Below, in pieces: positions 7,880 through 31,920 of a stretch of DNA of 64,000 nucleotides (the stretch's first letter is position 1; each line of letters opens with the position of its first letter). Origin of the DNA: an uncultured Planctomycetia bacterium (GTDB lineage Bacteria; Omnitrophota; Gorgyraeia; Duberdicusellales; 4484-171). The notes under the pieces are model-generated. The model searched no databases. It saw only the letters and a program-made list of their open reading frames with translations, and was not told where the DNA came from. The stretch covers positions 20,079 to 84,078 of the forward strand of contig CAZSDJ010000001.1 in NCBI GenBank assembly GCA_964605645.1, read 5' to 3'. The position numbers and the translations under genes were made by a program.

Positions 7880-7917
7880 AACATTTAAGTATATTTTTAT
7901 CTTTCCTCTAAAATTAC

Positions 7918-9132
7918 ATGAAAATAACCCCGTTAATTTTAAGTGATCAAAAAAAAGCAAAACAAACAATTCTTTCTTTAGGAGCGACTAAGCAGGGTGC
8001 TGATATTCTTAGTACGAAAGCTGTATTTAAAGTTTTTAAAATTGAAGGCATAAAATCTTGGGAAGCTAATATAATAAAACAGCATCTACTTTCTGTGGGT
8101 GCTGATGCTGCAGTAGAAAGGGATGCTTTAATAAAAGACATAAAAACTGAAGTGTTGATATTCGGAAGCATCAATCAATTAAAAAAGTTATCCCAAAAAT
8201 TAAAAAATCAAACTAAAAGGTTGAAAATGTTATCAAGGCAATTGTCAGAATCTTTGGACAATAGCCTAAAGAGCAGCTATCTTTATAAAGCTCGCGATAA
8301 AACTTTAAGAATAAATAAGCCCATTATTTGCGGGATAATAAATATTACTGAAGATTCTTTTTCCGGAGATGGATTGCTAAAGGAAGCAGAAAAATCTTTT
8401 TCTAAATTAGAAAAATTAGTTTTAAATAAAGTTTCAGCAATGGTAAAGGCGGGGGCAAAGATTATTGACTTCGGCGCTGAATCAACCAGGCCTTTTTCGA
8501 AAAAAATAAGCAGTAAAAAAGAAATAAAGAGGGTTGTTCCTGTTTTAAAAGTCATCCGAAAAGAATTTAAAAAGTTAATTATTTCAATAGATACTTATAA
8601 ACCACAAGTAGCGCAGGCAGCTGTTGATCAGGGGATAGATATTATAAATGATATTACAGCTTTAAAAAACAGCAAAATTGTTTCTTTAATAAAAAAATAT
8701 AAATTAGGGTGTGTATTGATGCACATGCAAGGCAATCCACAGAACATGCAAGCTAACCCTTCCTATAATCAGGTTACTGAAGAGATAGCTGATTTTTTTA
8801 GAGAAAGGTTAAGCTATTGCCGGCAAAAAGGTATTAATAAAAATCAAATTTTTATTGATCCGGGGATTGGATTTGGAAAATTAAAAAAACATAATTTAGA
8901 AATTATAAACAACTTATACCAATTTAAATCTTTGGGATTGCCAATATTCGTTGGCCTGTCGCGTAAATCATTTCTTGGTGATATAATAAAGAAGAGCCCC
9001 GCGAAAAGATTAGGAGCTACTATTGCGGCTAATATGATTGCATTGGCGAGAGGAGCTAATATTTTGCGGGTTCATGATGTAAGAGAGACAAAAGACGCAA
9101 TAAATATTTTTTCAGAACTTATAAAAAAATGA
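7918..9132 (+). CDS. folP: dihydropteroate synthase with ~120-aa uncharacterised N-terminal extension
   Basis: The pterin-binding domain starts at ICGIINITEDSFSGDG and includes ESTRP and RVHDV elements. Residues 1-~122 precede the DHPS fold. Confidence 0.85.
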   Translation: MKITPLILSDQKKAKQTILSLGATKQGADILSTKAVFKVFKIEGIKSWEANIIKQHLLSVGADAAVERDALIKDIKTEVLIFGSINQLKKLSQKLKNQTKRLKMLSRQLSESLDNSLKSSYLYKARDKTLRINKPIICGIINITEDSFSGDGLLKEAEKSFSKLEKLVLNKVSAMVKAGAKIIDFGAESTRPFSKKISSKKEIKRVVPVLKVIRKEFKKLIISIDTYKPQVAQAAVDQGIDIINDITALKNSKIVSLIKKYKLGCVLMHMQGNPQNMQANPSYNQVTEEIADFFRERLSYCRQKGINKNQIFIDPGIGFGKLKKHNLEIINNLYQFKSLGLPIFVGLSRKSFLGDIIKKSPAKRLGATIAANMIALARGANILRVHDVRETKDAINIFSELIKK

Positions 9133-12115: not shown

Positions 12116-12192
12116 GCCGGCGTAGCTCAATCTGGCAGAGCACCTCACTTGTAATGAGGATGTTGGAGGTTCGATTCCTCTCGCCGGCTCCA
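12116..12192 (+). tRNA. tRNA-Thr (anticodon TGT), CCA encoded
   Basis: Manual cloverleaf: acceptor GCCGGCG/CGCCGGC, D-stem GCTC/GAGC, anticodon stem CCTCA/TGAGG with loop CTTGTAA, T-loop TTCGATT, discriminator T, then CCA. Confidence 0.85.
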
Positions 12193-12268
12193 AATAGCTT
12201 ATAGCTGATGGCAAGAAAAAATATATTTTATTCTTATTAGCCATTAGCAATTATCCATAAGCCAATAA

Positions 12269-12351
12269 GGGCAGGTTCCCGAGTGGCCAAAGGGGACAGA
12301 CTGTAAATCTGTTGCGCTTGCGCTTCGGAGGTTCGAATCCTCCCCTGCCCA
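12269..12351 (+). tRNA. tRNA-Tyr (anticodon GTA), type II with long variable arm
   Basis: Acceptor GGGCAGG/CCTGCCC, anticodon stem ACAGA/TCTGT with loop CTGTAAA, variable-arm hairpin GCGC-TT-GCGC, T-arm GGAGG-TTCGAAT-CCTCC. No CCA is encoded. Confidence 0.85.
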
Positions 12352-12376
12352 TTTTTTCTGTCAAAGGCAGAAAAAA
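12352..12376 (+). terminator. hairpin TTTTTTCTG-tcaaagg-CAGAAAAAA immediately after tRNA-Tyr
   Basis: Perfect 9-bp inverted repeat with a 7-nt loop. U-tracts on both sides make it a bidirectional terminator-like structure, possibly a processing structure. Confidence 0.4.
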
Positions 12377-12493
12377 TAGAGCAATTGAGCAATCGAAAAA
12401 TAGAACAATAGAAAAGCTCAATTGCGGTCTATTGTTCAAATGTTCTATTGTTCAGAGCGTTGAGATAGAGTTTCTTTTGTGTTAACAAGAATT

Positions 12494-12564
12494 GCGGGCG
12501 TAGTTCAATGGAAGAACACTAGCCTTCCAAGCTGGATATGGCGGTTCGATCCCGCTCGCCCGCT
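12494..12564 (+). tRNA. tRNA-Gly (anticodon TCC)
   Basis: Acceptor GCGGGCG/CGCCCGC, anticodon stem CTAGC/GCTGG (one G-U) with loop CTTCCAA, T-loop TTCGATC, discriminator T. Confidence 0.8.
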
Positions 12565-12578
12565 TATTTATTAAATCA

Positions 12579-13595
12579 ATGGCTAACTCAATGAAGAAAA
12601 ATATATCTATAATTGGCGCCGGTAGCTGGGGCACTACCCTAGCCGTTTATTTAGCTCAGAAAGGTGTTAATGTAAAACTTCACAGTGTGTTTGATCAGCA
12701 TAATGCGCAAATGAAAAGGGAAAGAGAGAATAAGACTTTCCTAAAAAACATAAAATTTCCTTCCTGTTTAGACATTGAATCTTCGCTAGAGCAGACATTG
12801 AACCAAGAAATCATTTTAATTGCTATCCCGGTTAAATTTATCAGAAAATATTTAAAAAAAATTGCTGCAAAGAATGTTAATTTTAAAAATAAGATATTTG
12901 TGAGTGCAAGCAAAGGGATTGAAGTAAAATCTTTAAAAAGAGTTTCTGAAATCATACAAGAAGAATTAGCAACAAATAATATTGCAGTTCTTTCCGGGCC
13001 GACTATTGCCAAAGAAGTTGTAAAGGGCATTCCAACTACTGCAATTATAGCTGCGTCTAAAAAACAAATAGGCCGAAAACTTCAAGAATTATTTAATAGC
13101 CAGACCTTTAGAGTTTATGTACACGATGATATTGTTGGGGTTGAATTGGGTGGTTCTTTAAAAAATATTATTGCTTTAGCTTGTGGCATTTCTGATGGAT
13201 TGGGTTTTGGCACAAATACTAAAGCTGCTTTAGTTACCAGGGGTTTGGTGGAAATTGTGCGAGTTGGGAAGAAGTTAGGTTCAAAACCTAAAACTTTTTG
13301 GGGCATTAGCGGTTTAGGAGATTTAATGACTACTTGTTTTTCACCTCATTCACGTAACAGGACAGTTGGTGAATTATTGGGAAAAGGCAAGAAACTTAAA
13401 AATATTATAAAAGATATGGATATGATTGCCGAAGGCGTTGAAACTGTAAAATCTGCTTATAAACTCAGTAAAAAATTAGAGATAAGCATGCCAATAACCG
13501 AACAAATATATGCTATATTGTATAAGAATAAATTAACATATCGAGCGGTTATTGATTTAATGAACCGTCCCTTAAAAAAAGAAAAAATAAATTAA
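12579..13595 (+). CDS. gpsA: NAD(P)H-dependent glycerol-3-phosphate dehydrogenase
   Basis: ISIIGAGSWGTTLAVYLAQKG is a Rossmann motif, with GpsA central and C-terminal motifs (GVELGGSLKNIIALACGISDGLG). The second ATG at 12591 is an alternative start. Confidence 0.9.
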   Translation: MANSMKKNISIIGAGSWGTTLAVYLAQKGVNVKLHSVFDQHNAQMKRERENKTFLKNIKFPSCLDIESSLEQTLNQEIILIAIPVKFIRKYLKKIAAKNVNFKNKIFVSASKGIEVKSLKRVSEIIQEELATNNIAVLSGPTIAKEVVKGIPTTAIIAASKKQIGRKLQELFNSQTFRVYVHDDIVGVELGGSLKNIIALACGISDGLGFGTNTKAALVTRGLVEIVRVGKKLGSKPKTFWGISGLGDLMTTCFSPHSRNRTVGELLGKGKKLKNIIKDMDMIAEGVETVKSAYKLSKKLEISMPITEQIYAILYKNKLTYRAVIDLMNRPLKKEKIN

Positions 13596-13608
13596 ACAAA
13601 AAGATTAA

Positions 13609-14109
13609 ATGAAAAAGAAAAATAAAGTAATAACCATTATTCTGTTTATTTTATTATTAGGGGTCGTTTTATGTATTTCTAATAAAGATTTTATTGAACA
13701 AAAAATAAATTTATTTTTTGGAGAAGAGATTGAGGTTTTGGGATCCAAGTTTGGAACAGTTACTGGTTATCGAGGCAATGTTCCAAAGCTAGAAGAAACT
13801 GGCACGATTATATTAGAAAATAATGTTCACTTTGGCTGGGTTATTGCAACCAAAACGATAGATAAAAATATAGCTTGGAAAGAAGTTATTATCTTTCCAG
13901 AGAGGCCTAAAGATTTAATTGTTACCGTAGCTACAAAAGTGAGTGAAGATGGTAAAAAAGCAATTACCGAAAAGTCTTCAAACTTAAAAGATGGGCTTTT
14001 GTATAATTCATGGGCCTTAACTGAAAGCGATCCTCTCGGGGAGTATAAAATAAAAGTTTATGGGGAAGAAAAACTGCTTCAAGAATTTAAATTCAAAGTA
14101 AAAAAATAA
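13609..14109 (+). CDS. hypothetical exported/membrane-anchored protein
   Basis: N-terminal KKKNK followed by a hydrophobic helix (ITIILFILLLGVVLC). No recognisable catalytic motifs. Coding-like composition, 166 aa. Confidence 0.5.
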   Translation: MKKKNKVITIILFILLLGVVLCISNKDFIEQKINLFFGEEIEVLGSKFGTVTGYRGNVPKLEETGTIILENNVHFGWVIATKTIDKNIAWKEVIIFPERPKDLIVTVATKVSEDGKKAITEKSSNLKDGLLYNSWALTESDPLGEYKIKVYGEEKLLQEFKFKVKK

Positions 14110-14176
14110 GAATAAATTTATTTGATCTAGGTAATTGTTTTGTCTTGATAGCTGTCAGTAAGCATGATAAAATTTT

Positions 14177-14252
14177 CGGGAGGTGGCGCAGTTTGGCTTA
14201 GCGCACTTGCATGGGGTGCAAGGGGTCGCGGGTTCGAATCCCGCTCTCCCGA
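14177..14252 (+). tRNA. tRNA-Pro (anticodon GGG)
   Basis: Acceptor CGGGAGG/TCTCCCG (one G-U), D-stem GCGC/GCGC, anticodon stem CTTGC/GCAAG with loop ATGGGGT, T-arm GCGGG-TTCGAAT-CCCGC, discriminator A. Confidence 0.8.
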
Positions 14253-22555: not shown

Positions 22556-22641
22556 TGGTGCCGGAGAAGGGACTTGAACCCTTACCTTCTTACGAAGACG
22601 GGATTTTGAATCCCGCGCGTCTGCCATTCCGCCACTCCGGC
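22556..22641 (-). tRNA. tRNA-Leu (anticodon CAA), type II, CCA encoded
   Basis: Minus-strand sense is GCCGGAGTGGCGGAATGGCAGACGCGCGGGATTCAAAATCCCG...CTCCGGCACCA. Anticodon loop TTCAAAA, long variable hairpin CTTC-GTAA-GAAG, T-arm AAGGG-TTCAAGT-CCCTT. Confidence 0.85.
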
Positions 22642-22718
22642 GAGTTAGCTTATAGCTAATAGTTTATGGCTAATGGTTAGTCAGTCGTGAATTATTAATA
22701 TAACAACGCTATTTATCT

Positions 22719-22754
22719 TTGTCAATTGACAATTTCTTATTGAGATGATAATAT
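22719..22754 (+). promoter_or_regulatory. sigma70-like promoter with palindromic -35: TTGTCAATTGACAA (perfect 14-bp palindrome), 17-bp spacer, -10 TAATAT
   Basis: TTGACA lies at 22726-22731, the 17-nt spacer at 22732-22748 and TAATAT at 22749-22754. The predicted TSS is about 20 nt before the tRNA-Ala-like 5' fragment at 22781. Confidence 0.5.
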
Positions 22755-22780
22755 TCAATAAACTTAACCAAACTGGAAAT

Positions 22781-22802
22781 GGGGCCGTAGTTCAGCTGGG
22801 AG
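22781..22802 (+). pseudogene. tRNA-Ala 5' fragment (22-nt exact duplicate of the first 22 nt of the downstream tRNA-Ala)
   Basis: GGGGCCGTAGTTCAGCTGGGAG is identical to 22915-22936 and then diverges. It is followed by the hairpin CTTGAC-gaa-GTCAAG (22812-22826). Confidence 0.55.
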
Positions 22803-22914
22803 CCAATTCTTCTTGACGAAGTCAAGTTTTATATAATAATTAATTTAGAATTGCCTCCAAATATTTGATAGGGTCAATTTGTTTTACTGAAAGTATTAAT
22901 TATAAGTAGTTAAT

Positions 22915-22987
22915 GGGGCCGTAGTTCAGCTGGGAGAACGCTACACTGGCAGTGTAGAGGCCAGGGGTTCAAGTCCCCTCGGCTCCA
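22915..22987 (+). tRNA. tRNA-Ala (anticodon GGC)
   Basis: Acceptor GGGGCCG/CGGCTCC includes the G3:U70 Ala identity pair. D-stem GTTC/GAAC, anticodon stem CTACA/TGTAG with loop CTGGCAG, T-arm AGGGG-TTCAAGT-CCCCT, discriminator A. Confidence 0.85.
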
Positions 22988-26643: not shown

Positions 26644-28101
26644 ATGAATGCACATAAACAATTAGCGAAAACATTTAATTTTTTTATTTTTATACTTCTC
26701 ATTATTGGGATTATTTTAGGCAATGTATTTTCCTCTTATTTTTTCTTTTCTTTTCTTTTTATTTTATTGGGTGCTTTGGCTTATTTTTTAATTAAAAAAA
26801 ATAAAGTTTTGTTTTCTGAGATAAGTATTTCTTGCTTAGCTGTTTGTTTAGGTGCCTTATTATTTTTATCTTTTAATTATAACCAAATAAATAATTTTTT
26901 ACACACTAGGCAAAAAGCAACAATCAAAGTACTTTCATTGCCGCAAGAAAAAAGTAAGAGAAATATTTTTTTAGCCGAAATTATAAAGATAGGCGGTTAT
27001 CGCAAGCCATTCAAGGTAAAAGTTTTTGATTATTCGAAAAAAATGGATTATCTAAATAAATATCAGCTGCAAGCAAAATTAACCAAAAGAATATATCACA
27101 ATAAAAATTTTTACTATCTTTGGGTTAAAAAAAATACAAAGATAAAAAAGCTGCCTTTATCTTTGTGGGAAAGAGCAATTAAATGGGCTAATAATTATTG
27201 TTTGGCAGTTTTTGAAAATAATTGCACCCAAAGTACAAAAAACTTTTTAGCAGCAATATTTTTAGGCCGAAAAGAATTGATCGGCAAAGAAAAAGAATTT
27301 ATGCAAAATGCCGGCCTTTCCCATCTTTTGGCAATCAGCGGCTTACACGTTGGCTTGATTTCTTTGATTTTATTTTATTTTTTAAGATTTTTCCAGATAA
27401 GTTTTCGGACCATACTTTTTATTTTATCAATTTTTCTTATTTTTTATGTTGTTGCCACCGGATTTAGGCCCTCAACTCAGAGAGCTGTTTTGATGTATCT
27501 TGTTTTTGCTCTCGGCTTTTTGATGAAAAGAAAAATCGAAGTATTAAATTCATTGGGGCTTGCCGGTGTAATTCTATTGTTATTTTCACCAAACATTATT
27601 TATGATATCGGATTTCAACTTTCTTTTTTGGCGGTTTTTGGTATTGTGCTGGGATTTAAGATTTTTCCTTACAAGCAACAGAGTAATCTTTTGATCAATT
27701 ATATAAAACAAATTTTTCTTTGTTCTGTATTTGTCACCTTATTTACTTTGCCGGTTGTATCTTTTTATTTTGGAAAAATTTATGTGATGAGTATCTTTTA
27801 CAATATTGCCTTAATCCCTATATTTACTTTTATTCTTCTCATGAATTTATTGCTATTGCTGGTATCTCCTTTTGCTTTTTTCACAAAAAGCTTGGGGGTT
27901 GTTTTATCTTGGCTAGTTTATATTTTTCAAAGCTTAGCAAAGATTTTTGGCTCTTTTTCTTACTCTTATCTTTCCTACTCCTTTTCGTTTCCAGGGATTT
28001 TTATTTATTATTTATTTTTGTCTGCCGCAATAGTTTTATTTTTAAATCGCAAATCAGATTTTCTAAGAAAACAGAAACTCAACGAAATTCAGACGCTTTA
28101 G
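26644..28101 (+). CDS. comEC: ComEC/Rec2 family DNA internalisation channel (competence domain only, no beta-lactamase-like domain)
   Basis: Polytopic membrane protein. MQNAGLSHLLAISGLHVGLI is the conserved competence-domain motif. The last 8 codons and stop are encoded by the left arm of repeat A1. Confidence 0.85.
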   Translation: MNAHKQLAKTFNFFIFILLIIGIILGNVFSSYFFFSFLFILLGALAYFLIKKNKVLFSEISISCLAVCLGALLFLSFNYNQINNFLHTRQKATIKVLSLPQEKSKRNIFLAEIIKIGGYRKPFKVKVFDYSKKMDYLNKYQLQAKLTKRIYHNKNFYYLWVKKNTKIKKLPLSLWERAIKWANNYCLAVFENNCTQSTKNFLAAIFLGRKELIGKEKEFMQNAGLSHLLAISGLHVGLISLILFYFLRFFQISFRTILFILSIFLIFYVVATGFRPSTQRAVLMYLVFALGFLMKRKIEVLNSLGLAGVILLLFSPNIIYDIGFQLSFLAVFGIVLGFKIFPYKQQSNLLINYIKQIFLCSVFVTLFTLPVVSFYFGKIYVMSIFYNIALIPIFTFILLMNLLLLLVSPFAFFTKSLGVVLSWLVYIFQSLAKIFGSFSYSYLSYSFSFPGIFIYYLFLSAAIVLFLNRKSDFLRKQKLNEIQTL

Positions 28102-28217
28102 ATAACTCTTTCTGTGGCAAGAAGTAAGGAAACAAATATTTCAAAATTTCTAAAAATACAATATTTGTTTTGTAACTTATTGGAGGAGAGGAGGATGTCT
28201 AAAGCGTCTGAGTATTG
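28076..28217. repeat. repeat family A, copy A1 (~142 bp long imperfect palindrome), overlapping the comEC stop codon
   Basis: About 90% identical to 30617-30759. The arms TCAGACGCTTT / AAAGCGTCTGA form an inverted repeat, and the inner stem is AAACAAATATT / AATATTTGTTT. It contains SD GGAGGAGAGGAGG plus a 7-codon mini-ORF (MSKASEY*) at 28194. Confidence 0.75.
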
Positions 28218-28481
28218 ACAAATATTGACATAGTTGCTAGTAATTCTCAACAGAATTTTAAAAGTATTAATGTGAGATTTTTAAAAGGAAACGATAGGAA
28301 GAGCCAATGGGAATGGGAAGTTAAATGGACAGATGGAACCAAGACACCTTTTAAGGTTGAACTCACCCAACCTTCCCAGGGAGGCACAGATATTCAAGTA
28401 TATGGAACACAAGAAGAAGTTGATTTTGATTCTAGCCAGAAAATAATAATTGATCTAGGAGATATAAGTAAACCCAGATAA
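28215..28481 (+). CDS. hypothetical protein (orphan cassette-like ORF; start uncertain, TTG 28215 or GTG 28272)
   Basis: 88-codon ORF with non-K-rich composition (TQPSQGGTDIQVYGTQEEVDFDSSQ), unlike neighbouring proteins. No convincing RBS. Its stop TAA is embedded in the GATAACA core of repeat rep1. Confidence 0.3.
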   Translation: MTNIDIVASNSQQNFKSINVRFLKGNDRKSQWEWEVKWTDGTKTPFKVELTQPSQGGTDIQVYGTQEEVDFDSSQKIIIDLGDISKPR

Positions 28482-28561
28482 CAACTCATTTCACCGGACC
28501 TGAATAGCGACCTAAATAGAATTATGGTATACTATTCAGGCCGCTCAATTTGAATGTTATC
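28477..28561 (+). repeat. attC-like imperfect palindromic repeat rep1 (85 bp), GATAACA...TGTTATC termini
   Basis: The terminal 7-mers are exact reverse complements. The internal perfect 9-bp inverted repeat is CCTGAATAG (28499-28507) / CTATTCAGG (28532-28540), with a conserved centre CCTAAATAGAATT. Confidence 0.6.
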
Positions 28562-28590
28562 TGGAAAAATGAATAAAAAATAATAATTGT

Positions 28591-28619
28591 TTGACATTTG
28601 GTATCGATTATGGTATGGT
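28591..28619 (+). promoter_or_regulatory. vapBC promoter: TTGACA-17-TATGGT with direct repeat GGTAT..GGTAT in spacer
   Basis: Consensus -35 with a 17-nt spacer. RBS GGAGGTG lies 5 nt before ATG 28638. Confidence 0.55.
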
Positions 28620-28637
28620 TTTACTGGAGGTGAATCG

Positions 28638-28844
28638 ATGAAATTAGTTAAAGTATCTCCTAAATATCAAGTAGTTATCCCCCAATCAATTAGAGAAGCT
28701 TTAAAAATACACCCCGGAGAAAAAATTCATATGTTGCGGTATGAAAATCGTATAGAATTTATACCCGAAAAAAATATAAAATCTATGCGGGGCTTTCTGA
28801 AAGGAATTGATACTACCGTAAAACGGGAAAAAGGCCGTATATGA
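28638..28844 (+). CDS. vapB: AbrB/SpoVT-type antitoxin VapB
   Basis: MKLVKVSPKYQVVIPQSIREALKI is a swapped-hairpin AbrB/MazE-like motif. It is 68 aa and overlaps the downstream PIN toxin by ATGA. The strong RBS favours the ATG at 28638 over the track's upstream start at 28587. Confidence 0.8.
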   Translation: MKLVKVSPKYQVVIPQSIREALKIHPGEKIHMLRYENRIEFIPEKNIKSMRGFLKGIDTTVKREKGRI

Positions 28845-29218
28845 ATATAGTTGATTCTTGTGGTTGGTTAGAATATTTTGCCGATGGGCCAAATGCAAAT
28901 TTTTTCGCCCCGCCTATAGAAAAACCTAAAAATCTAATTGTACCCTCAATATGTATTTTTGAAGTGTTTAAGCGAATTTACCAACAACGTAATGAAGATG
29001 AGGCTTTACAAGCCATAGCTTTAATGCATCAAGGAGAAACTGTGGCAATAGACGATTCTTCTGCTTTATATGCTGCAAAATTAAGCCTTGATAATAATCT
29101 CCCTATGGCTGATAGTTTAATTTTGGCAATCGCCCGTATCAAAAAAGCTACAATATGGACTCAGGATAAAGATTTCGAAAAAATTGAAGATATAAAATAT
29201 ATTAAAGCAAAAAAATAA
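28841..29218 (+). CDS. vapC: PIN-domain toxin VapC
   Basis: MNIVDSCGWLEYF carries the conserved N-terminal Asp. The acidic residues D..E..D..D are spaced as in PIN domains, and TQDKDF is near the C-terminus. 125 aa. Confidence 0.8.
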   Translation: MNIVDSCGWLEYFADGPNANFFAPPIEKPKNLIVPSICIFEVFKRIYQQRNEDEALQAIALMHQGETVAIDDSSALYAAKLSLDNNLPMADSLILAIARIKKATIWTQDKDFEKIEDIKYIKAKK

Positions 29219-29235
29219 ATATAATAATAAACCCG

Positions 29236-29321
29236 GATAACAACTCATTCGAGCCGGCCTTTGACAGGCGCGCTTTATGAAACCAATCGGTTGTCAAGGG
29301 CAGCTTAATTCGAATGTTATG
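29236..29321 (+). repeat. attC-like repeat rep2 (86 bp), GATAACA...TGTTATG termini
   Basis: The 5' flank AAACCCgGATAACAACTCATT is shared with rep1. The internal inverted repeat is TTTGACAGG / TTGTCAAGG, and the 3' end is AATTCGAATGTTAT. Confidence 0.6.
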
Positions 29322-29347
29322 GGGAGTAGATGAAAAATAAAAATGCT

Positions 29348-29376
29348 TTGACATGTACATCTAAATAATGTACAAT
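29348..29376 (+). promoter_or_regulatory. brnTA promoter: TTGACA-17-TACAAT with TGTACA...TGTACA inverted repeat in spacer; GTG start 6 nt after -10 (leaderless)
   Basis: TTGACA lies at 29348-29353 and TACAAT at 29371-29376. The palindrome TGTACATCTAAATAATGTACA is a likely antitoxin operator. Confidence 0.5.
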
Positions 29377-29382
29377 TAAGCT

Positions 29383-29661
29383 GTGGAATACGAATGGAAT
29401 CCTGAAAAAAACGAATGGCTTAAAGAAAAAAGAAACATCTCTTTTGAGCAAATTGTTTTCCACTTTTCACAAGGTGATGTTTGGAGAAACTCCGATCATC
29501 CGGATAAAAAAAAATATAAAAAGCAAAAAATATATTTTGTCATCGTTGAAAATTATATTTATTTAGTGCCACATGTTGTTGAAAAGGAATATATATTTTT
29601 GAAAACGATAATTCCCAGTAGAAAAGCAACTAAAATGTATAAAAGAAAGCAGGAGGATTAA
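29383..29661 (+). CDS. brnT: BrnT-family toxin (DUF497 ribonuclease)
   Basis: MEYEWNPEKNEWLKEKRNISFEQ matches the BrnT N-terminal signature (EFEWDxxKNxxNxxKHGISFEEA). 92 aa, GTG start. Confidence 0.75.
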   Translation: MEYEWNPEKNEWLKEKRNISFEQIVFHFSQGDVWRNSDHPDKKKYKKQKIYFVIVENYIYLVPHVVEKEYIFLKTIIPSRKATKMYKRKQED

Positions 29662-29663
29662 TT

Positions 29664-29969
29664 ATGAAATATAATAAAGAAGAAAAGTACATATTGAAAG
29701 CTTTAGAAGACGGAAAAATGACGCTTTCTAAACCATCAAAAAAAGAAATAGAATCAATTAAAGCAGCCGCTAATAATACTTTTAAAAAAAATCGCCGGAT
29801 TACAATCAGGCTTTATAATCATGATTTTATAGGAATACAAAAAAAAGCAGTTGAGATGGGGATACCTTATCAAACACTGATTTCAGGCATAATTCATAGG
29901 TATATTGAAGGCGATATAAAAATAAAATCTCACAACAACTCGCTCCAGCGAACCCAAAAGCGGGCCTAA
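29664..29969 (+). CDS. brnA: BrnA-family antitoxin
   Basis: Directly downstream of brnT. KKNRRITIRLYNHDFIGIQKKAVEMGIPYQTLISGIIHRYIEG is a ribbon-helix-helix-type C-terminal domain typical of BrnA. The last 13 codons are encoded by repeat rep3. Confidence 0.75.
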   Translation: MKYNKEEKYILKALEDGKMTLSKPSKKEIESIKAAANNTFKKNRRITIRLYNHDFIGIQKKAVEMGIPYQTLISGIIHRYIEGDIKIKSHNNSLQRTQKRA

Positions 29970-30019
29970 ATAGAATTGCAAAAGAACCGCTTTTGCGCCG
30001 CTGAATTCGAATGTTAGAC
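29931..30019 (+). repeat. attC-like repeat rep3 (89 bp), CACAACAACTC...TGTTAGA termini
   Basis: Internal perfect 9-bp inverted repeat CAAAAGCGG / CCGCTTTTG, plus CAGCG/CGCTG. It shares the centre CCTAAATAGAATT with rep1 and the end AATTCGAATGTTA with rep2. Confidence 0.55.
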
Positions 30020-30046
30020 ATAAATAATGGAAATAAAAAAAGTACC

Positions 30047-30075
30047 TTGACAAGACGTACGTAATATGGTACGTT
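30047..30075 (+). promoter_or_regulatory. yefM-yoeB promoter: TTGACA-17-TACGTT with ACGTAC/GTACGT palindrome in spacer
   Basis: TTGACA lies at 30047-30052. The spacer AGACGTACGTAATATGG contains inverted half-sites. RBS GGAGG lies 6 nt before ATG 30094. Confidence 0.5.
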
Positions 30076-30093
30076 TTACACGGAGGAAAAGAA

Positions 30094-30336
30094 ATGACAA
30101 CTTTAACAGCAAGCCAGGCAAGAGCAAAATTATATAAATTATTAGATAAATTAGCTGAATCTCACGAACCTATTCAAATTAGTGGCAAAAGGCATGATGC
30201 TGTCCTTATTAGCCAAGAGGATTGGAGAGCAATTAAAGAAACTTTATTTTTGCTTTCTATTCCTAAAATGAGGGAATCTATCCGCAAAGGATTAAGAGCC
30301 CCTCTTAAAAAATGCGATAAGAAGCTAAACTGGTGA
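30094..30336 (+). CDS. yefM: Phd/YefM-family antitoxin
   Basis: TASQARAKLYKLLDKLAESHEPIQISGKRHDAVLISQEDWRAIKETL is the YefM fold signature. It overlaps the toxin gene by 4 nt. Confidence 0.8.
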   Translation: MTTLTASQARAKLYKLLDKLAESHEPIQISGKRHDAVLISQEDWRAIKETLFLLSIPKMRESIRKGLRAPLKKCDKKLNW

Positions 30337-30596
30337 GTTGGAAACTCGTCTATACTAAGCAAGCACAAAAAGATGCTAAAAAACTATCCACTGCAGGCTT
30401 ACGCCCAAAAGCAGAAGCCATTCTTGAAATCTTAGAAAAAAATCCCTACAGAAAACATCCACCCTTTGAAAAATTAATAGGGGACTTAGAAGGGGCTTAT
30501 TCACGCAGAATAAATATCCAGCATCGTGTAGTTTACCAGATTATAAAAAAATATAAAACTGTAAAAATTATCCGGTTATGGACGCATTATAAATAA
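30333..30596 (+). CDS. yoeB: YoeB/Txe-family toxin (RelE superfamily mRNA interferase)
   Basis: The FEKLIGDLEGAYSRRINIQHRVVYQI....IIRLWTHY block matches YoeB (catalytic H..Y at the C-terminus). 87 aa. Confidence 0.8.
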   Translation: MSWKLVYTKQAQKDAKKLSTAGLRPKAEAILEILEKNPYRKHPPFEKLIGDLEGAYSRRINIQHRVVYQIIKKYKTVKIIRLWTHYK

Positions 30597-30616
30597 ATTT
30601 AGATAAAATGTCTATC

Positions 30617-30759
30617 AACTCATGTCGAATTCAGACGCTTTAGATAGCTCTTTCTGTAGCAAGAAGTAAGGAAACAAATATTTTAAAATTTCTAAAAATA
30701 CAATATTTGTTTTGTAACTTATTGGTAGAGAGATGGATATCGAAAGCGTCTGAGTATTG
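30617..30759. repeat. repeat family A, copy A2 (~143 bp long imperfect palindrome)
   Basis: About 90% identical to A1. The 11-bp perfect arms are TCAGACGCTTT (30631-30641) and AAAGCGTCTGA (30743-30753). The left end ATCAACTCATGTCGAATTC resembles fused rep-type ends. Confidence 0.75.
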
Positions 30760-30765
30760 CGTAAT

Positions 30766-30851
30766 ATTTTAAAATTTCTAAAAATACAATATTTGTTTTG
30801 TAACTTATTGGTAGAGAGGTGGATATCGAAAGCGTCTGAGTATTGCGTAAT
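30766..30851. repeat. 86-bp tandem duplication of the right half of repeat A (unit 2; unit 1 = 30680-30765)
   Basis: 30766-30851 repeats 30680-30765 with one mismatch (ATTTTAAAATTTCTAAAAATACAATATTTGTTTTGTAACTTATTGGTAGAGAG[A/G]TGGATATCGAAAGCGTCTGAGTATTGCGTAAT). Confidence 0.8.
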
Positions 30852-30969
30852 AGCGATGTTTTGTTATGAATTCAAGAAAGCTGTTTTGATAAAATTTGTG
30901 TATATTTTTTGACAATGCTAATTTTGGATACAGATTGACAAAGGCAATCGGTTCTGATATATTTTCTTT

Positions 30970-31920
30970 ATGGTTAAATCTATATTTATAATTATATTTA
31001 CTTTTGGTTGCCTGCAGGCTTATCCGTTTTGGATCTGGTCGCCGAAGACTCAAAAGTGGAAAAATCCTGAATATTCCGCTCTTGCTACTCCTATCCTTCA
31101 ATACAAGGAAGCTATTAAATCTTTCAATGAAGGTAATTTTAAGAGGGCTTATAAAGAGTTGAAAAAAATGATTACTAATTATCCTGACTCTAAGCAAGCA
31201 GCTGAAGCTCAATATTATATGGGAAGAACTTTGGAAGAGCTTGATAAGCCGTATGAAGCTTATCTTGCTTTTCGCAAGGTGATTCAAAGCTATCCCAACA
31301 GTAAAAGAATTAATGAGGTTATTGAGAGAGAGTACAATATCGGAGAATATTTTTTAAATAGAGAAAGCAAAAAATTACTCGGTGTTTCAATTTATGATTT
31401 TGTAAATCATCCTTCGGTTCAGATTTTTCAAAGTATTGTTGAAGAAACCCCTTATTCTGAATATGCTGCCAGGGCACAATATAAATTAGGGGTAATTTTT
31501 TTAAAATTAAGCCGGTTTGAAGAAGCACGGCAAGCATTTCAAAAAGTTATCGATGATTATTCTGAGAGTAAATGGGCAACGCCGGCAAAATATCAATTAG
31601 CTTTAGCTACCGCAAAAGCTTTTCCCGGCGCCGATTATGACGCCTCTTCCCTTCAACAAGCAACTGAAAGATTAAGTGAATTTATTAAGGAGCATCCGGA
31701 AGCAGAAATATCGGAGCAGGCAGAGGGCCAATTAGCCCAATTAAGAAATAAAGAAGCTAAAAAAATATTTGAAACTGCTGTATTTTACAAAAAACAAAGG
31801 CATCCGGATAGTGCTAAAATTTATTTAGATAAAATAATTAATAAATATTCCGATAGCGAATACTATCAAAAAGCAAAACAAATGTTAAAAGATTTAGAAG
31901 GTCTGTCAGACTCTAATTAA
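30970..31920 (+). CDS. BamD-like TPR lipoprotein (outer-membrane assembly factor family)
   Basis: A signal peptide with an FTFGC lipobox-like Cys is followed by repeated TPR units ending in YP(D/N)S (NYPDSKQAAEAQYYMG, SYPNSKRINEV, DYSESKWA), as in BamD/YfiO. 316 aa. Confidence 0.6.
   Translation: MVKSIFIIIFTFGCLQAYPFWIWSPKTQKWKNPEYSALATPILQYKEAIKSFNEGNFKRAYKELKKMITNYPDSKQAAEAQYYMGRTLEELDKPYEAYLAFRKVIQSYPNSKRINEVIEREYNIGEYFLNRESKKLLGVSIYDFVNHPSVQIFQSIVEETPYSEYAARAQYKLGVIFLKLSRFEEARQAFQKVIDDYSESKWATPAKYQLALATAKAFPGADYDASSLQQATERLSEFIKEHPEAEISEQAEGQLAQLRNKEAKKIFETAVFYKKQRHPDSAKIYLDKIINKYSDSEYYQKAKQMLKDLEGLSDSN

What the first reader, a model, noticed from the sequence alone, without database searches (positions are those of the whole stretch)
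28076..30851. Integron-like cassette array (CALIN-type) of three toxin-antitoxin modules inserted into a conserved leuS-lptE-holA neighbourhood
Between comEC and a bamD-like/lptE-like/holA-like block lies a 2.8-kb island containing an orphan ORF, vapBC, brnTA and yefM-yoeB, all on the + strand. Every unit ends in an 85-89 bp imperfect-palindromic repeat of the type 5'-GATAACAACTCATT...AATTCGAATGTTAT(C)-3' (rep1-3). The island is bracketed by a second ~142 bp palindromic repeat family: A1 at 28076-28217, A2 at 30617-30759, and an 86-bp tandem duplication at 30766-30851. The arrangement ORF(s)-repeat-ORF(s)-repeat resembles integron gene cassettes. The repeats have inverse-complementary ends carrying TAAC...GTTA (compare R'' RYYYAAC / R' GTTRRRY) and an internal imperfect palindrome with variable central spacers, and each cassette has its own promoter, as is typical for TA cassettes. 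Chromosomal integrons, Vibrio superintegrons in particular, are known to be enriched for exactly these TA families. No tyrosine recombinase or intI is present in the 64 kb, so this would be a cluster of attC sites lacking an integrase, or an array whose integrase lies elsewhere. Alternatively it is a novel MITE-like element family that captures TA genes. Either reading is unusual for a low-GC, apparently streamlined genome.
Basis: partly seen in the sequence, partly recalled or inferred. Interest (0 to 1): 0.85.

Follow-up and report, generated by a model that had tools for sequence, protein, structure and literature searches.

The report
Integron cassette array without integrase
A 2.8-kb insert in a Candidatus Omnitrophota genome is a small integron-type gene-cassette array (three intact attC recombination sites, three toxin-antitoxin pairs, one gene remnant) with no integrase nearby; this is a known kind of element in a phylum where I found no published description of it, and an unexplained hairpin repeat forms both of its edges.

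Summary
Window 28076-30851 carries a gene remnant, vapBC, brnTA and yefM-yoeB on the + strand. Three 87-90 nt repeats separate them, and a 132-143 nt hairpin repeat (A1, A2, plus an 86-nt tandem partial copy) brackets the whole.

The three repeats have the attC layout: R''(..AAC), 5 nt, L'' with one extra base, a variable palindrome, L', 6 nt, R'(GTTA..). The same family forms same-strand arrays in other Omnitrophota MAGs, and cassettes are shared between arrays in different orders. A related Omnitrophota contig (L032) has a true integron integrase (TIGR02249, 409 bits) next to an array containing brnTA followed by yefM-yoeB, colinear with the window.

Related genomes carry zero, one or one different cassette between comEC and bamD. 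No tyrosine recombinase lies in the 64 kb. The CALIN reading is therefore supported.

Three corrections:
- The "orphan ORF" is the 3' end of a ~255-aa gene, cut exactly at A1.
- The fourth attC is truncated by A2.
- Cassette arrays are not unusual in this lineage.

The A hairpin is not an attC. It brackets a solo brnTA cassette at another locus in another genome. A second hairpin family (B) cuts a terminal attC elsewhere. Its role is unresolved; a MITE-like rearrangement agent is my best guess.

The parts
26644..28101 (+). comEC, the left backbone gene. Its last codons run into the A1 unit.
   Evidence: Pfam Competence, 183 bits. Similarity to orthologues in L037 and L038 stops at 28054-28055.
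28076..28217 (.). A1, a hairpin repeat with arms 28089-28140 and 28160-28211. It is preceded by ~13 nt that match the attC stub in front of A2.
28215..28481 (+). It is the 3' end of a ~255-aa TPR-protein gene, cut at the right end of A1.
   Evidence: No homologue in the word-indexed search. 50% identity to residues 176-253 of P0242, starting at the ORF's first codon.
28476..28562 (+). attC1 (rep1): R'' 28476-28482, L'' 28488-28495, L' 28543-28549, R' 28556-28562. The predicted crossover is G28556|T28557.
   Evidence: R1 76.2 bits. Bottom strand -21.2 vs top -17.5 kcal/mol.
28591..29218 (+). vapBC cassette: promoter-like site 28591-28619, vapB 28638-28844, vapC 28841-29218.
29235..29322 (+). 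attC2 (rep2): R'' 29235-29241, L'' 29247-29254 (ATT[C]GAGC), L' 29303-29309, R' 29316-29322.
   Evidence: R1 77.3 bits.
29348..29969 (+). brnTA cassette: promoter-like site 29348-29376, brnT 29383-29661, partner gene 29664-29969. The partner's last codons overlap attC3.
   Evidence: Pfam BrnT_toxin matches at E 2.4e-6 but below the gathering score (28.2 bits vs cutoff 34.5). NCBIfam finds nothing for either gene. 88-89% nt identity to brnTA in L020 and L023 at other loci.
29930..30019 (+). attC3 (rep3): R'' 29930-29936, L'' 29942-29949 (GCT[C]CAGC), L' 30000-30006, R' 30013-30019.
   Evidence: R1 75.2 bits. Best hit in the window of R3, a model built only from the L032 integron.
30014..30596 (+). 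yefM-yoeB cassette: yefM 30094-30336, yoeB 30333-30596.
   Evidence: 91% nt identity to L037, starting at 30011, within 3 nt of the predicted G|TT crossover.
30612..30629 (+). Truncated attC of the yefM-yoeB cassette. Only the R''-side stub remains.
   Evidence: It aligns with the start of the complete attC in L037 (7830-7915) and then diverges into A2.
30617..30852 (.). A2 (30617-30759, arms 30631-30685 and 30699-30753) plus an 86-nt tandem partial copy (30763-30848).
30935..31920 (+). bamD-like gene with its conserved promoter, the right backbone.

Best explanation
The island is a fragment of an integron cassette array sitting in the chromosome of a Candidatus Omnitrophota bacterium with no integrase nearby, i.e. 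a CALIN.

Rep1-3 are attC sites. On the bottom (-) strand each can fold into the standard hairpin: a paired R box, an unpaired spacer, an L box with one bulged G, and a variable tip. An integron integrase supplied in trans could cut this hairpin at G|TT and so excise, insert or reorder the cassettes.

Three cassettes are type II toxin-antitoxin pairs with their own promoters, so they are expressed without an integron promoter and tend to hold the array in place. The comEC-bamD spacer is a recurrent landing site in this lineage: relatives have it empty or filled with one cassette.

The present edges were not made by the integrase. A ~130-nt hairpin repeat (A) cuts a cassette gene on the left and the last attC on the right. 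This leaves a dead first cassette and a yefM-yoeB module that can no longer be excised at its 3' side. I infer that A is a MITE-like repeat that caused, or took part in, a rearrangement of the array.

Shown: the attC architecture and covariation, arrays with shuffled cassettes, an IntI-bearing homologous array, insertion polymorphism, and the breakpoints at A.

Inferred: recombination by IntI in trans, a stabilising role for the TA pairs, and the MITE nature and role of A.
For: attC architecture:
- 18 sites from five sources align with conserved ends and a variable middle.
- 85% of cells pair, against 24-34% when the 3' partners are slid.
- The alignment has 24 compensatory cells; no shuffle out of 500 reached that number.
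- One unpaired base in L'' is C in 17 of 18 sites, which is a G on the bottom strand.
- The bottom strand folds better in 12 of 18 sites.
- The aadA4 attC from a class 1 integron, read directly, shows the same logic.

Arrays in relatives:
- There are 3-5 same-strand sites spaced 500-1400 nt apart in L005, L011/L020, L014 and L015.
- Three cassettes are shared between arrays in different contexts: brnTA, MNT/HEPN and a DUF4190 protein.

Integrase link:
- L032 carries IntI (TIGR02249, 409 bits vs cutoff 265; 43% identical to IntI1) facing an array whose brnTA and yefM-yoeB cassettes are colinear with the window (71% over 1295 nt).
- R1 finds L032 attC sites.
- R3, built only from L032 sites, ranks rep3, rep1 and rep2 as its top three hits in the 64 kb.

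Insertion polymorphism:
- L043 is the empty site, with 106 nt between comEC and bamD.
- L037 has yefM-yoeB only, with a complete attC.
- L038 and L040 have a different brnT/copG cassette.
- The cassettes are 88-91% identical between genomes whose flanking genes are about 75% identical.

Other:
- No recombinase is in the window.
- A's breakpoints are shown.
- The same A family brackets a solo brnTA with a truncated attC in L023.
Against: - IntegronFinder's own attC model could not be run.
- R1 is family-specific and did not detect a class 1 attC.
- R3's scores on the window are weak taken singly (21, 15 and 15 bits; E 0.018-0.65).
- No integrase was found in any genome that carries exactly this attC subfamily, because every such array starts at a contig end.
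- The rest of the source genome was not available, so an integrase elsewhere cannot be shown or excluded.
- rep2's minimum-energy fold is not the canonical one, and its top strand is slightly more stable.
- For A as a MITE: there are no target-site duplications, no cognate transposase, and only two loci are known.
Confidence: 0.85

Rival explanations
1. Rep1-3 are a generic REP- or MITE-like palindromic repeat unrelated to integrons, and TA genes merely happen to lie between them.
For: They are imperfect palindromes in intergenic DNA. No integrase is in the window.
Against: - They have conserved AAC/GTT ends, fixed 5- and 6-nt spacers, and a single extra base always on the same arm.
- They have one fixed orientation relative to the genes.
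- They occur only in arrays.
- Homologous sites and cassettes lie next to a true IntI.
- The homology boundary between cassettes falls at G|TT.
Confidence: 0.04
2. The A hairpins are themselves recombination sites, either an atypical long attC or an attI-like or other att site. On this view the direct repeats are the attL and attR left by site-specific integration of a circular cassette block.
For: - A is a long hairpin with a variable tip and compensatory changes.
- Direct copies flank cassettes at two unrelated loci.
- A1 has AAC five nt upstream of the stem, and the right copy in L023 has GTTATAG six nt downstream.
Against: - No copy has both AAC and GTT in register.
- Neither attC model hits A.
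- G-T wobbles favour the + strand, the opposite of the attC sites beside it.
- A's right end lies inside a broken gene and its left end inside a broken attC. This is not what a conservative site-specific event would leave.
Confidence: 0.1
3. A is mainly an RNA-level element: a transcribed long hairpin, like ERIC or REP elements, that ends or stabilises the comEC and yefM-yoeB transcripts. Its position at the array edges would then be incidental.
For: - The hairpin is kept on the transcribed strand, with 11 G-U cells against at most 4 non-pairs.
- It sits directly after stop codons.
- The 3' arm is conserved in sequence beyond what pairing needs.
Against: - There is no T-run and no terminator call, and no Rfam match.
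- This does not explain why A cuts a gene and an attC, or why it flanks cassettes twice.
Confidence: 0.15
4. The array is the distal part of a complete integron whose intI lies just outside the sequence examined.
For: Half of known CALINs lie in replicons that encode IntI (PMC4889954). The contig is 86 kb and only 64 kb was seen.
Against: - There are 28 kb of housekeeping genes to the left and 33 kb to the right with no recombinase.
- The array's left edge is comEC and its right edge is bamD, both syntenic with relatives.
- An integrase elsewhere would therefore act in trans, not as part of this locus.
Confidence: 0.03

Closest known systems
[quoted passage not shown] 2016, PMC4889954) and genome-inserted cassettes / SALIN (Loot et al., bioRxiv 10.1101/2022.09.11.507474)
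   Same: - It has at least two attC sites within 4 kb and no integrase nearby.
- It is small.
- It has no intI pseudogene next to it.
- Relatives carry single cassettes at the same spot, as expected if cassettes land at genomic sites outside the integron.
   Different: - The host phylum is Candidatus Omnitrophota.
- Both array edges are formed by a hairpin repeat that truncates a cassette gene and the last attC.
Sedentary chromosomal integrons rich in TA cassettes (Vibrio superintegron type; mentioned in PMC4889954)
   Same: - The attC sites are homogeneous within the lineage.
- The TA cassettes carry their own promoters.
- Many cassettes encode ORFans or secreted proteins.
- The attC bottom strands lie on the leading-strand template (plus my own knowledge of that rule).
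   Different: There are only four cassettes and no integrase, attI or Pc at this locus.
MITE-flanked integrons and the integron mobilization unit (Gillings 2009; Domingues 2011; Poirel 2009; reviewed in PMC3575428)
   Same: Two direct copies of a short non-coding inverted-repeat element bracket an integron fragment. In the natural IMU case there were also no target duplications.
   Different: - Those elements flank class 1 integrons that still have intI.
- Their transposases and terminal repeats are known.
- Here A brackets cassettes only and cuts into an attC, and no cognate transposase is known.
ERIC/IRU and Correia-type elements (my own knowledge, not tested here)
   Same: They are ~130-nt imperfect palindromes in transcribed intergenic DNA. 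Longer variants arise by internal insertion, as in the L023 copies.
   Different: Those families are high-copy and dispersed. A was seen only at cassette borders in about 400 kb sampled.

Membership tests
integron attC site | Inverse core sites R'' (..AAC) and R' (GTT..) at the two ends, in a fixed orientation downstream of the cassette ORF | tested here: met
   AAC and GTTA are invariant in 17-18 of 18 sites. The R-box pairs nearest the AAC/GTT triplet hold in 16-18 of 18 sites. All sites are on the coding strand.
integron attC site | L''/L' pair with an extra, unpaired base on the L'' arm (the bottom-strand extrahelical G used for strand choice) | tested here: met
   Column 19 is unpaired in all 18 sites and is C in 17. 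Four L-box pairs covary, e.g. ATT/AAT with ACT/AGT and GAGC/GCTC with CAGC/GCTG or CACC/GGTG.
integron attC site | A central region variable in sequence and length that stays self-complementary | tested here: met
   Lengths are 81-104 nt. Each site has a different central palindrome.
integron attC site | Detection by the IntegronFinder attC covariance model | not testable with these tools
   The model is not available here. Substitute test: R3, built only from sites of an IntI-bearing integron, ranks the three repeats first in the window.
integron attC site | Recombination by an integron integrase | not testable with these tools
   Indirect evidence only: cassettes are shared between arrays in different orders, and the homology boundary falls at G|TT.
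CALIN | Two or more attC sites less than 4 kb apart with no integron integrase nearby | tested here: met
   Three sites are spaced 759 and 695 nt apart. tblastn with IntI finds nothing in the 64 kb.
complete integron | intI with attI and Pc adjacent to the array | tested here: not met
   Absent in the window. Present in the related contig L032.
type II toxin-antitoxin modules | Adjacent small antitoxin and toxin genes matching known families | tested here: met
   - vapBC: MazE/AbrB 27.6 and 41.3 bits, PIN 44.8 bits, all above cutoff.
- yefM-yoeB: PhdYeFM 57.2 bits, YoeB TIGR02116 83.5 bits, both above cutoff.
- brnT: 28.2 bits, below the Pfam cutoff of 34.5. Its partner has no hit.
MITE (for repeat A) | Terminal inverted repeats | tested here: met
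   The outer arms CAGACGCTTTnGATA and TATCnAAAGCGTCTG are conserved in the window and in L023.
MITE (for repeat A) | Target-site duplication | tested here: not met
   No matching flanks at any of the four full copies.
MITE (for repeat A) | Many dispersed copies and a cognate transposase with the same ends | tested here: inconclusive
   - Copies are found only at two loci in about 400 kb held.
- An exact 24-mer scan of metagenome and viral contigs gave only chance hits.
- The source genome beyond the window was not available.

The most novel reading that the evidence does not exclude
The A and B hairpin elements are a so far undescribed class of small non-coding elements. Either they target integron attC hairpins, or they break arrays at them. 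In pairs they carry cassette blocks to new chromosomal sites without the integrase. This would be a second, integrase-independent route for moving and fixing integron cassettes.
Probability: 0.15. Interest if true: 0.7.

Novelty: new member of a known kind. Interest (0 to 1): 0.4.

Why it matters
This extends integron biology to Candidatus Omnitrophota, an uncultured phylum. The full-text library I searched has no paper describing integrons there.

It also gives a natural allelic series at one chromosomal spot: empty, one cassette, a different cassette, and four cassettes. Such a series is what the recently proposed insertion of cassettes at genomic sites outside the integron would produce.

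The hairpin repeats that cut terminal attC sites suggest a way in which cassettes become fixed or are moved as blocks. That part is unproven.

Tried and rejected
- A as an attC: rejected. There is no AAC/GTT pair in register, neither attC model hits it, and its wobble bias is on the opposite strand.
- A as a known RNA: no Rfam match at E<=1.
- A in public collections: the exact 24-mer AATATTTGTTYTGTARCTTATTGG gave 0 viral hits and 2 metagenome hits. Both metagenome hits were chance matches in low-GC coding DNA.
- attC pattern in viral contigs: 3 hits, none recognised by R1.
- Cross-checking R1 on a class 1 integron: R1 is too family-specific and missed the aadA4 attC. I read that site by eye instead.
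- Finding intI upstream of the closest arrays (L005, L011, L014): L011's array starts at the contig end, and the held stretches of L005 and L014 begin within the array, so nothing upstream could be read.
- Exact look-up of the source contig's proteins: only a 1.1-kb Logan contig was returned.
- The orthologue of the L023 insertion site in the window: not present.
- My guess that cassette 2 of L032 is a RAYT/Y1-type transposase: no Pfam support.
- Target-site duplications for A and B: none found.

Full report
**What is in the sequence**

The window is low-GC (33.7%). Its BamD-like protein is 80-88% identical to proteins of Candidatus Omnitrophica/Omnitrophota MAGs, so the source is an Omnitrophota genome.

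Between comEC (26644-28101) and a bamD-like gene (30970-31920) lie, all on the + strand:
- an 88-aa ORF
- vapBC
- brnT with a partner gene
- yefM-yoeB

vapBC and yefM-yoeB match their families above the curated cutoffs. brnT matches Pfam BrnT_toxin only below the cutoff (28.2 vs 34.5 bits), and its partner has no family hit.

Three repeats of 87-90 nt follow the first three units. A 132-143 nt palindromic repeat lies at both ends, and its right copy is followed by an 86-nt tandem partial copy. A model of the repeat family scores the three copies 75-77 bits, and nothing else in the 64 kb exceeds 14 bits with filters off.

**The three short repeats are attC sites**

Read on the top strand, each repeat has this layout:
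- xxxxAAC (R'')
- AACTC (5-nt spacer)
- an 8-nt L'' box
- a variable palindrome
- a 7-nt L' box
- TCGAAT or TTGAAT (6-nt spacer)
- GTTAxxx (R')

A scan of 185,579 species genomes for AACAACTC..AATTYGAATGTTA returned 18 stretches. Four of them (L005, L011, L014 and L015) were true relatives. Three are labelled Omnitrophota, and the fourth is a 2.9-kb contig binned as Bacilli.

A covariance model built from eight sites (R1) then found 3-5 sites per locus. All were on one strand and 500-1400 nt apart.

In the 18-site alignment:
- The ends are conserved and the middle is not.
- 85% of cells pair, against 24-34% when the 3' partners are slid by 1-3 columns.
- There are 24 compensatory cells, a number no shuffle out of 500 reached.
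- The L box covaries: ATT/AAT with ACT/AGT, and GAGC/GCTC with CAGC/GCTG or CACC/GGTG.
- L'' always has one extra base, a C in 17 of 18 sites, which is a bulged G on the bottom strand. From my knowledge of attC biology, this is the feature that lets the integrase choose the bottom strand.

The bottom strand folds better in 12 of 18 sites, by 0.9 kcal/mol on average. An aadA4 attC read from an annotated class 1 integron shows the same plan.

**Cassettes move between arrays**
- The brnTA unit of the window (29300-29978) is 89% identical to one that ends an array next to tRNA-Thr, an MFS gene and the rnf operon in L020.
- An MNT/HEPN pair is shared by L011 and L015.
- A DUF4190 protein is shared by L014 and L015, in different neighbourhoods.
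- The window's yefM-yoeB is 91% identical to that of L037, while the flanking comEC and bamD are only 75% identical.
- That similarity starts at 30011, within 3 nt of the predicted G|TT crossover in R' of rep3.

**Link to an integrase**

Looking up a BrnT homologue (P0100, Candidatus Omnitrophica) gave contig L032. On it a 426-aa tyrosine recombinase on the opposite strand faces five cassettes.
- The recombinase matches TIGR02249 (integron integrase) over the whole profile at 409 bits against a cutoff of 265.
- It is 43% identical to IntI1.
- The L032 cassettes include brnTA followed by yefM-yoeB, colinear with the window (71% identity over 1295 nt).
- Its attC sites have the same plan as the window's.
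- R1 detects two of them (36.6 and 31.9 bits).
- R3, a model built only from the four L032 sites, ranks rep3, rep1 and rep2 as its three best hits in the whole window. The scores are weak taken singly: 21.1, 15.5 and 14.9 bits.

**The locus is an insertion hot spot**
- L043 (BamD 70% identical) has only 106 nt between comEC and bamD. This is the empty site.
- L037 (81%) has one cassette, yefM-yoeB, with a complete attC (R1 51.8 bits).
- L038 and L040 (80%) have one different cassette, brnT/copG, with a decayed attC.
- The window has four cassettes.

No tyrosine recombinase lies in the 64 kb (tblastn with IntI at E<=10).

The locus meets the published definition of a CALIN (PMC4889954). The single-cassette alleles resemble the isolated cassettes (SALINs) that Loot et al. 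attribute to insertion at genomic GWT sites (bioRxiv 10.1101/2022.09.11.507474).

1. The 'orphan ORF' has no homologue in the word-indexed search. In the exhaustive search it matches residues 176-253 of a 255-aa TPR protein at 50% identity, from its very first codon. It is therefore the 3' end of a gene, cut within 3 nt of the right end of A1.
2. The yefM-yoeB unit does not end in a full repeat. Its attC follows the L037 attC for about 18 nt (to 30628) and then runs into A2.
3. Arrays are common in related genomes, so the element is not unusual for this lineage.

**The A repeat**

A is a ~130-nt imperfect hairpin (z -5.9 and -7.0). It is not an attC:
- No copy has AAC and GTT in register.
- Neither attC model hits it.
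- Its G-T wobbles favour the + strand, with 11 G-U cells against at most 4 non-pairs.

It has no Rfam match.

The same family occurs in L023, a 154-kb JGI contig. Two diverged copies there carry internal insertions and bracket a solo brnTA cassette (88% nt identity to the window's cassette; BrnT protein 92% identical) at an unrelated locus between rlmN and an aldehyde dehydrogenase gene. The right copy again replaces the 3' half of the cassette's attC. Four pairs show compensatory changes between copies.

In the window, the ~13 nt in front of A1 match the attC stub in front of A2. The stub-plus-A unit was therefore duplicated after A had joined the yefM-yoeB attC.

A second hairpin family, B (AGGGGACGTTTCCCTC...GAGGGAAACGYCCCCT), behaves similarly. 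It replaces the 3' half of the last attC of the L014 array, and it sits between comEC and the cassette in L038 and L040. In about 400 kb held, every A and B copy lies at a cassette border. That sample was collected through cassettes, so it is biased.

The closest precedents I could document are MITE-flanked integrons and the integron mobilization unit (PMC3575428).

My reading is that A is a MITE-like repeat that reshaped the array. A plausible history follows; it is inference, not shown:
- A single yefM-yoeB cassette stood between two A units, like brnTA in L023.
- More cassettes arrived upstream of it.
- A deletion next to A1 then removed the 5' part of the first one.

**Other context**

GC skew is positive across the window, so the + strand is the leading strand and the attC bottom strands lie on the leading-strand template. 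From my own knowledge, this is the orientation reported for sedentary chromosomal integrons.

Promoter-like sites precede vapBC and brnTA. For yefM-yoeB I found one only by reading the sequence: TTGACA plus 17 nt at about 30048, with a palindrome over it.

**Verdict**

The CALIN interpretation is supported with high confidence. It is a new member of a known kind, in a phylum for which the searched literature holds no description of integrons.

The unexplained part is the pair of hairpin families that sit on truncated terminal attC sites.

Noticed in passing
L014:4764-4930; L038:1196-1345; L040:94-243: A second long palindrome family (B, ends AGGGGACGTTTCCCTC / GAGGGAAACGYCCCCT, with different interiors). 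In L014 it replaces the 3' half of the last attC. In L038 and L040 it sits between comEC and the single cassette. R2, the model of A, hits the L040 copy weakly (25 bits).
   Followed up: partly
L037:7045-7085 and 7915-7960: A ~40-nt direct repeat containing the hairpin TTCCCACCTCnGnGGTGGGAA flanks the single yefM-yoeB insertion. This is a third case of a cassette insertion bracketed by copies of a hairpin.
   Followed up: no
L005:788-3127; L020:61-4289: There is a second array location in relatives. Arrays end about 250 nt before tRNA-Thr(CGT), followed by an MFS gene and the rnf operon. L020's last attC is also truncated.
   Followed up: partly
L019:1-30; L039:1-90; P0122: Three independent assemblies break just upstream of bamD. 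This is consistent with repeats at that spot confusing assemblers.
   Followed up: no
L032:8750-9180; L027:1-75: A frameshifted cassette gene with an HDH..Y-like C-terminus (SFHDHIIR..IREYIFNNP) precedes brnTA in two arrays. I suspected a Y1/HUH transposase, but Pfam gives no hit.
   Followed up: partly
L028:2255-2295: Here a brnTA cassette next to V-ATPase genes ends in a ~35-nt collapsed attC (GGATAAC...GAGTTATTG). Loss of the attC hairpin seems to be a common way for TA cassettes to become fixed.
   Followed up: no
window 12116-14252 and 22559-22987: Six tRNA genes lie here, three of them clustered at 12116-12564. This is ordinary.
   Followed up: no
window 1-64000: 45 of 47 ORFs of at least 150 aa are on the + strand, and GC skew is positive throughout (+0.08 to +0.21). 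The window lies on one replichore with strong gene-strand bias.
   Followed up: no
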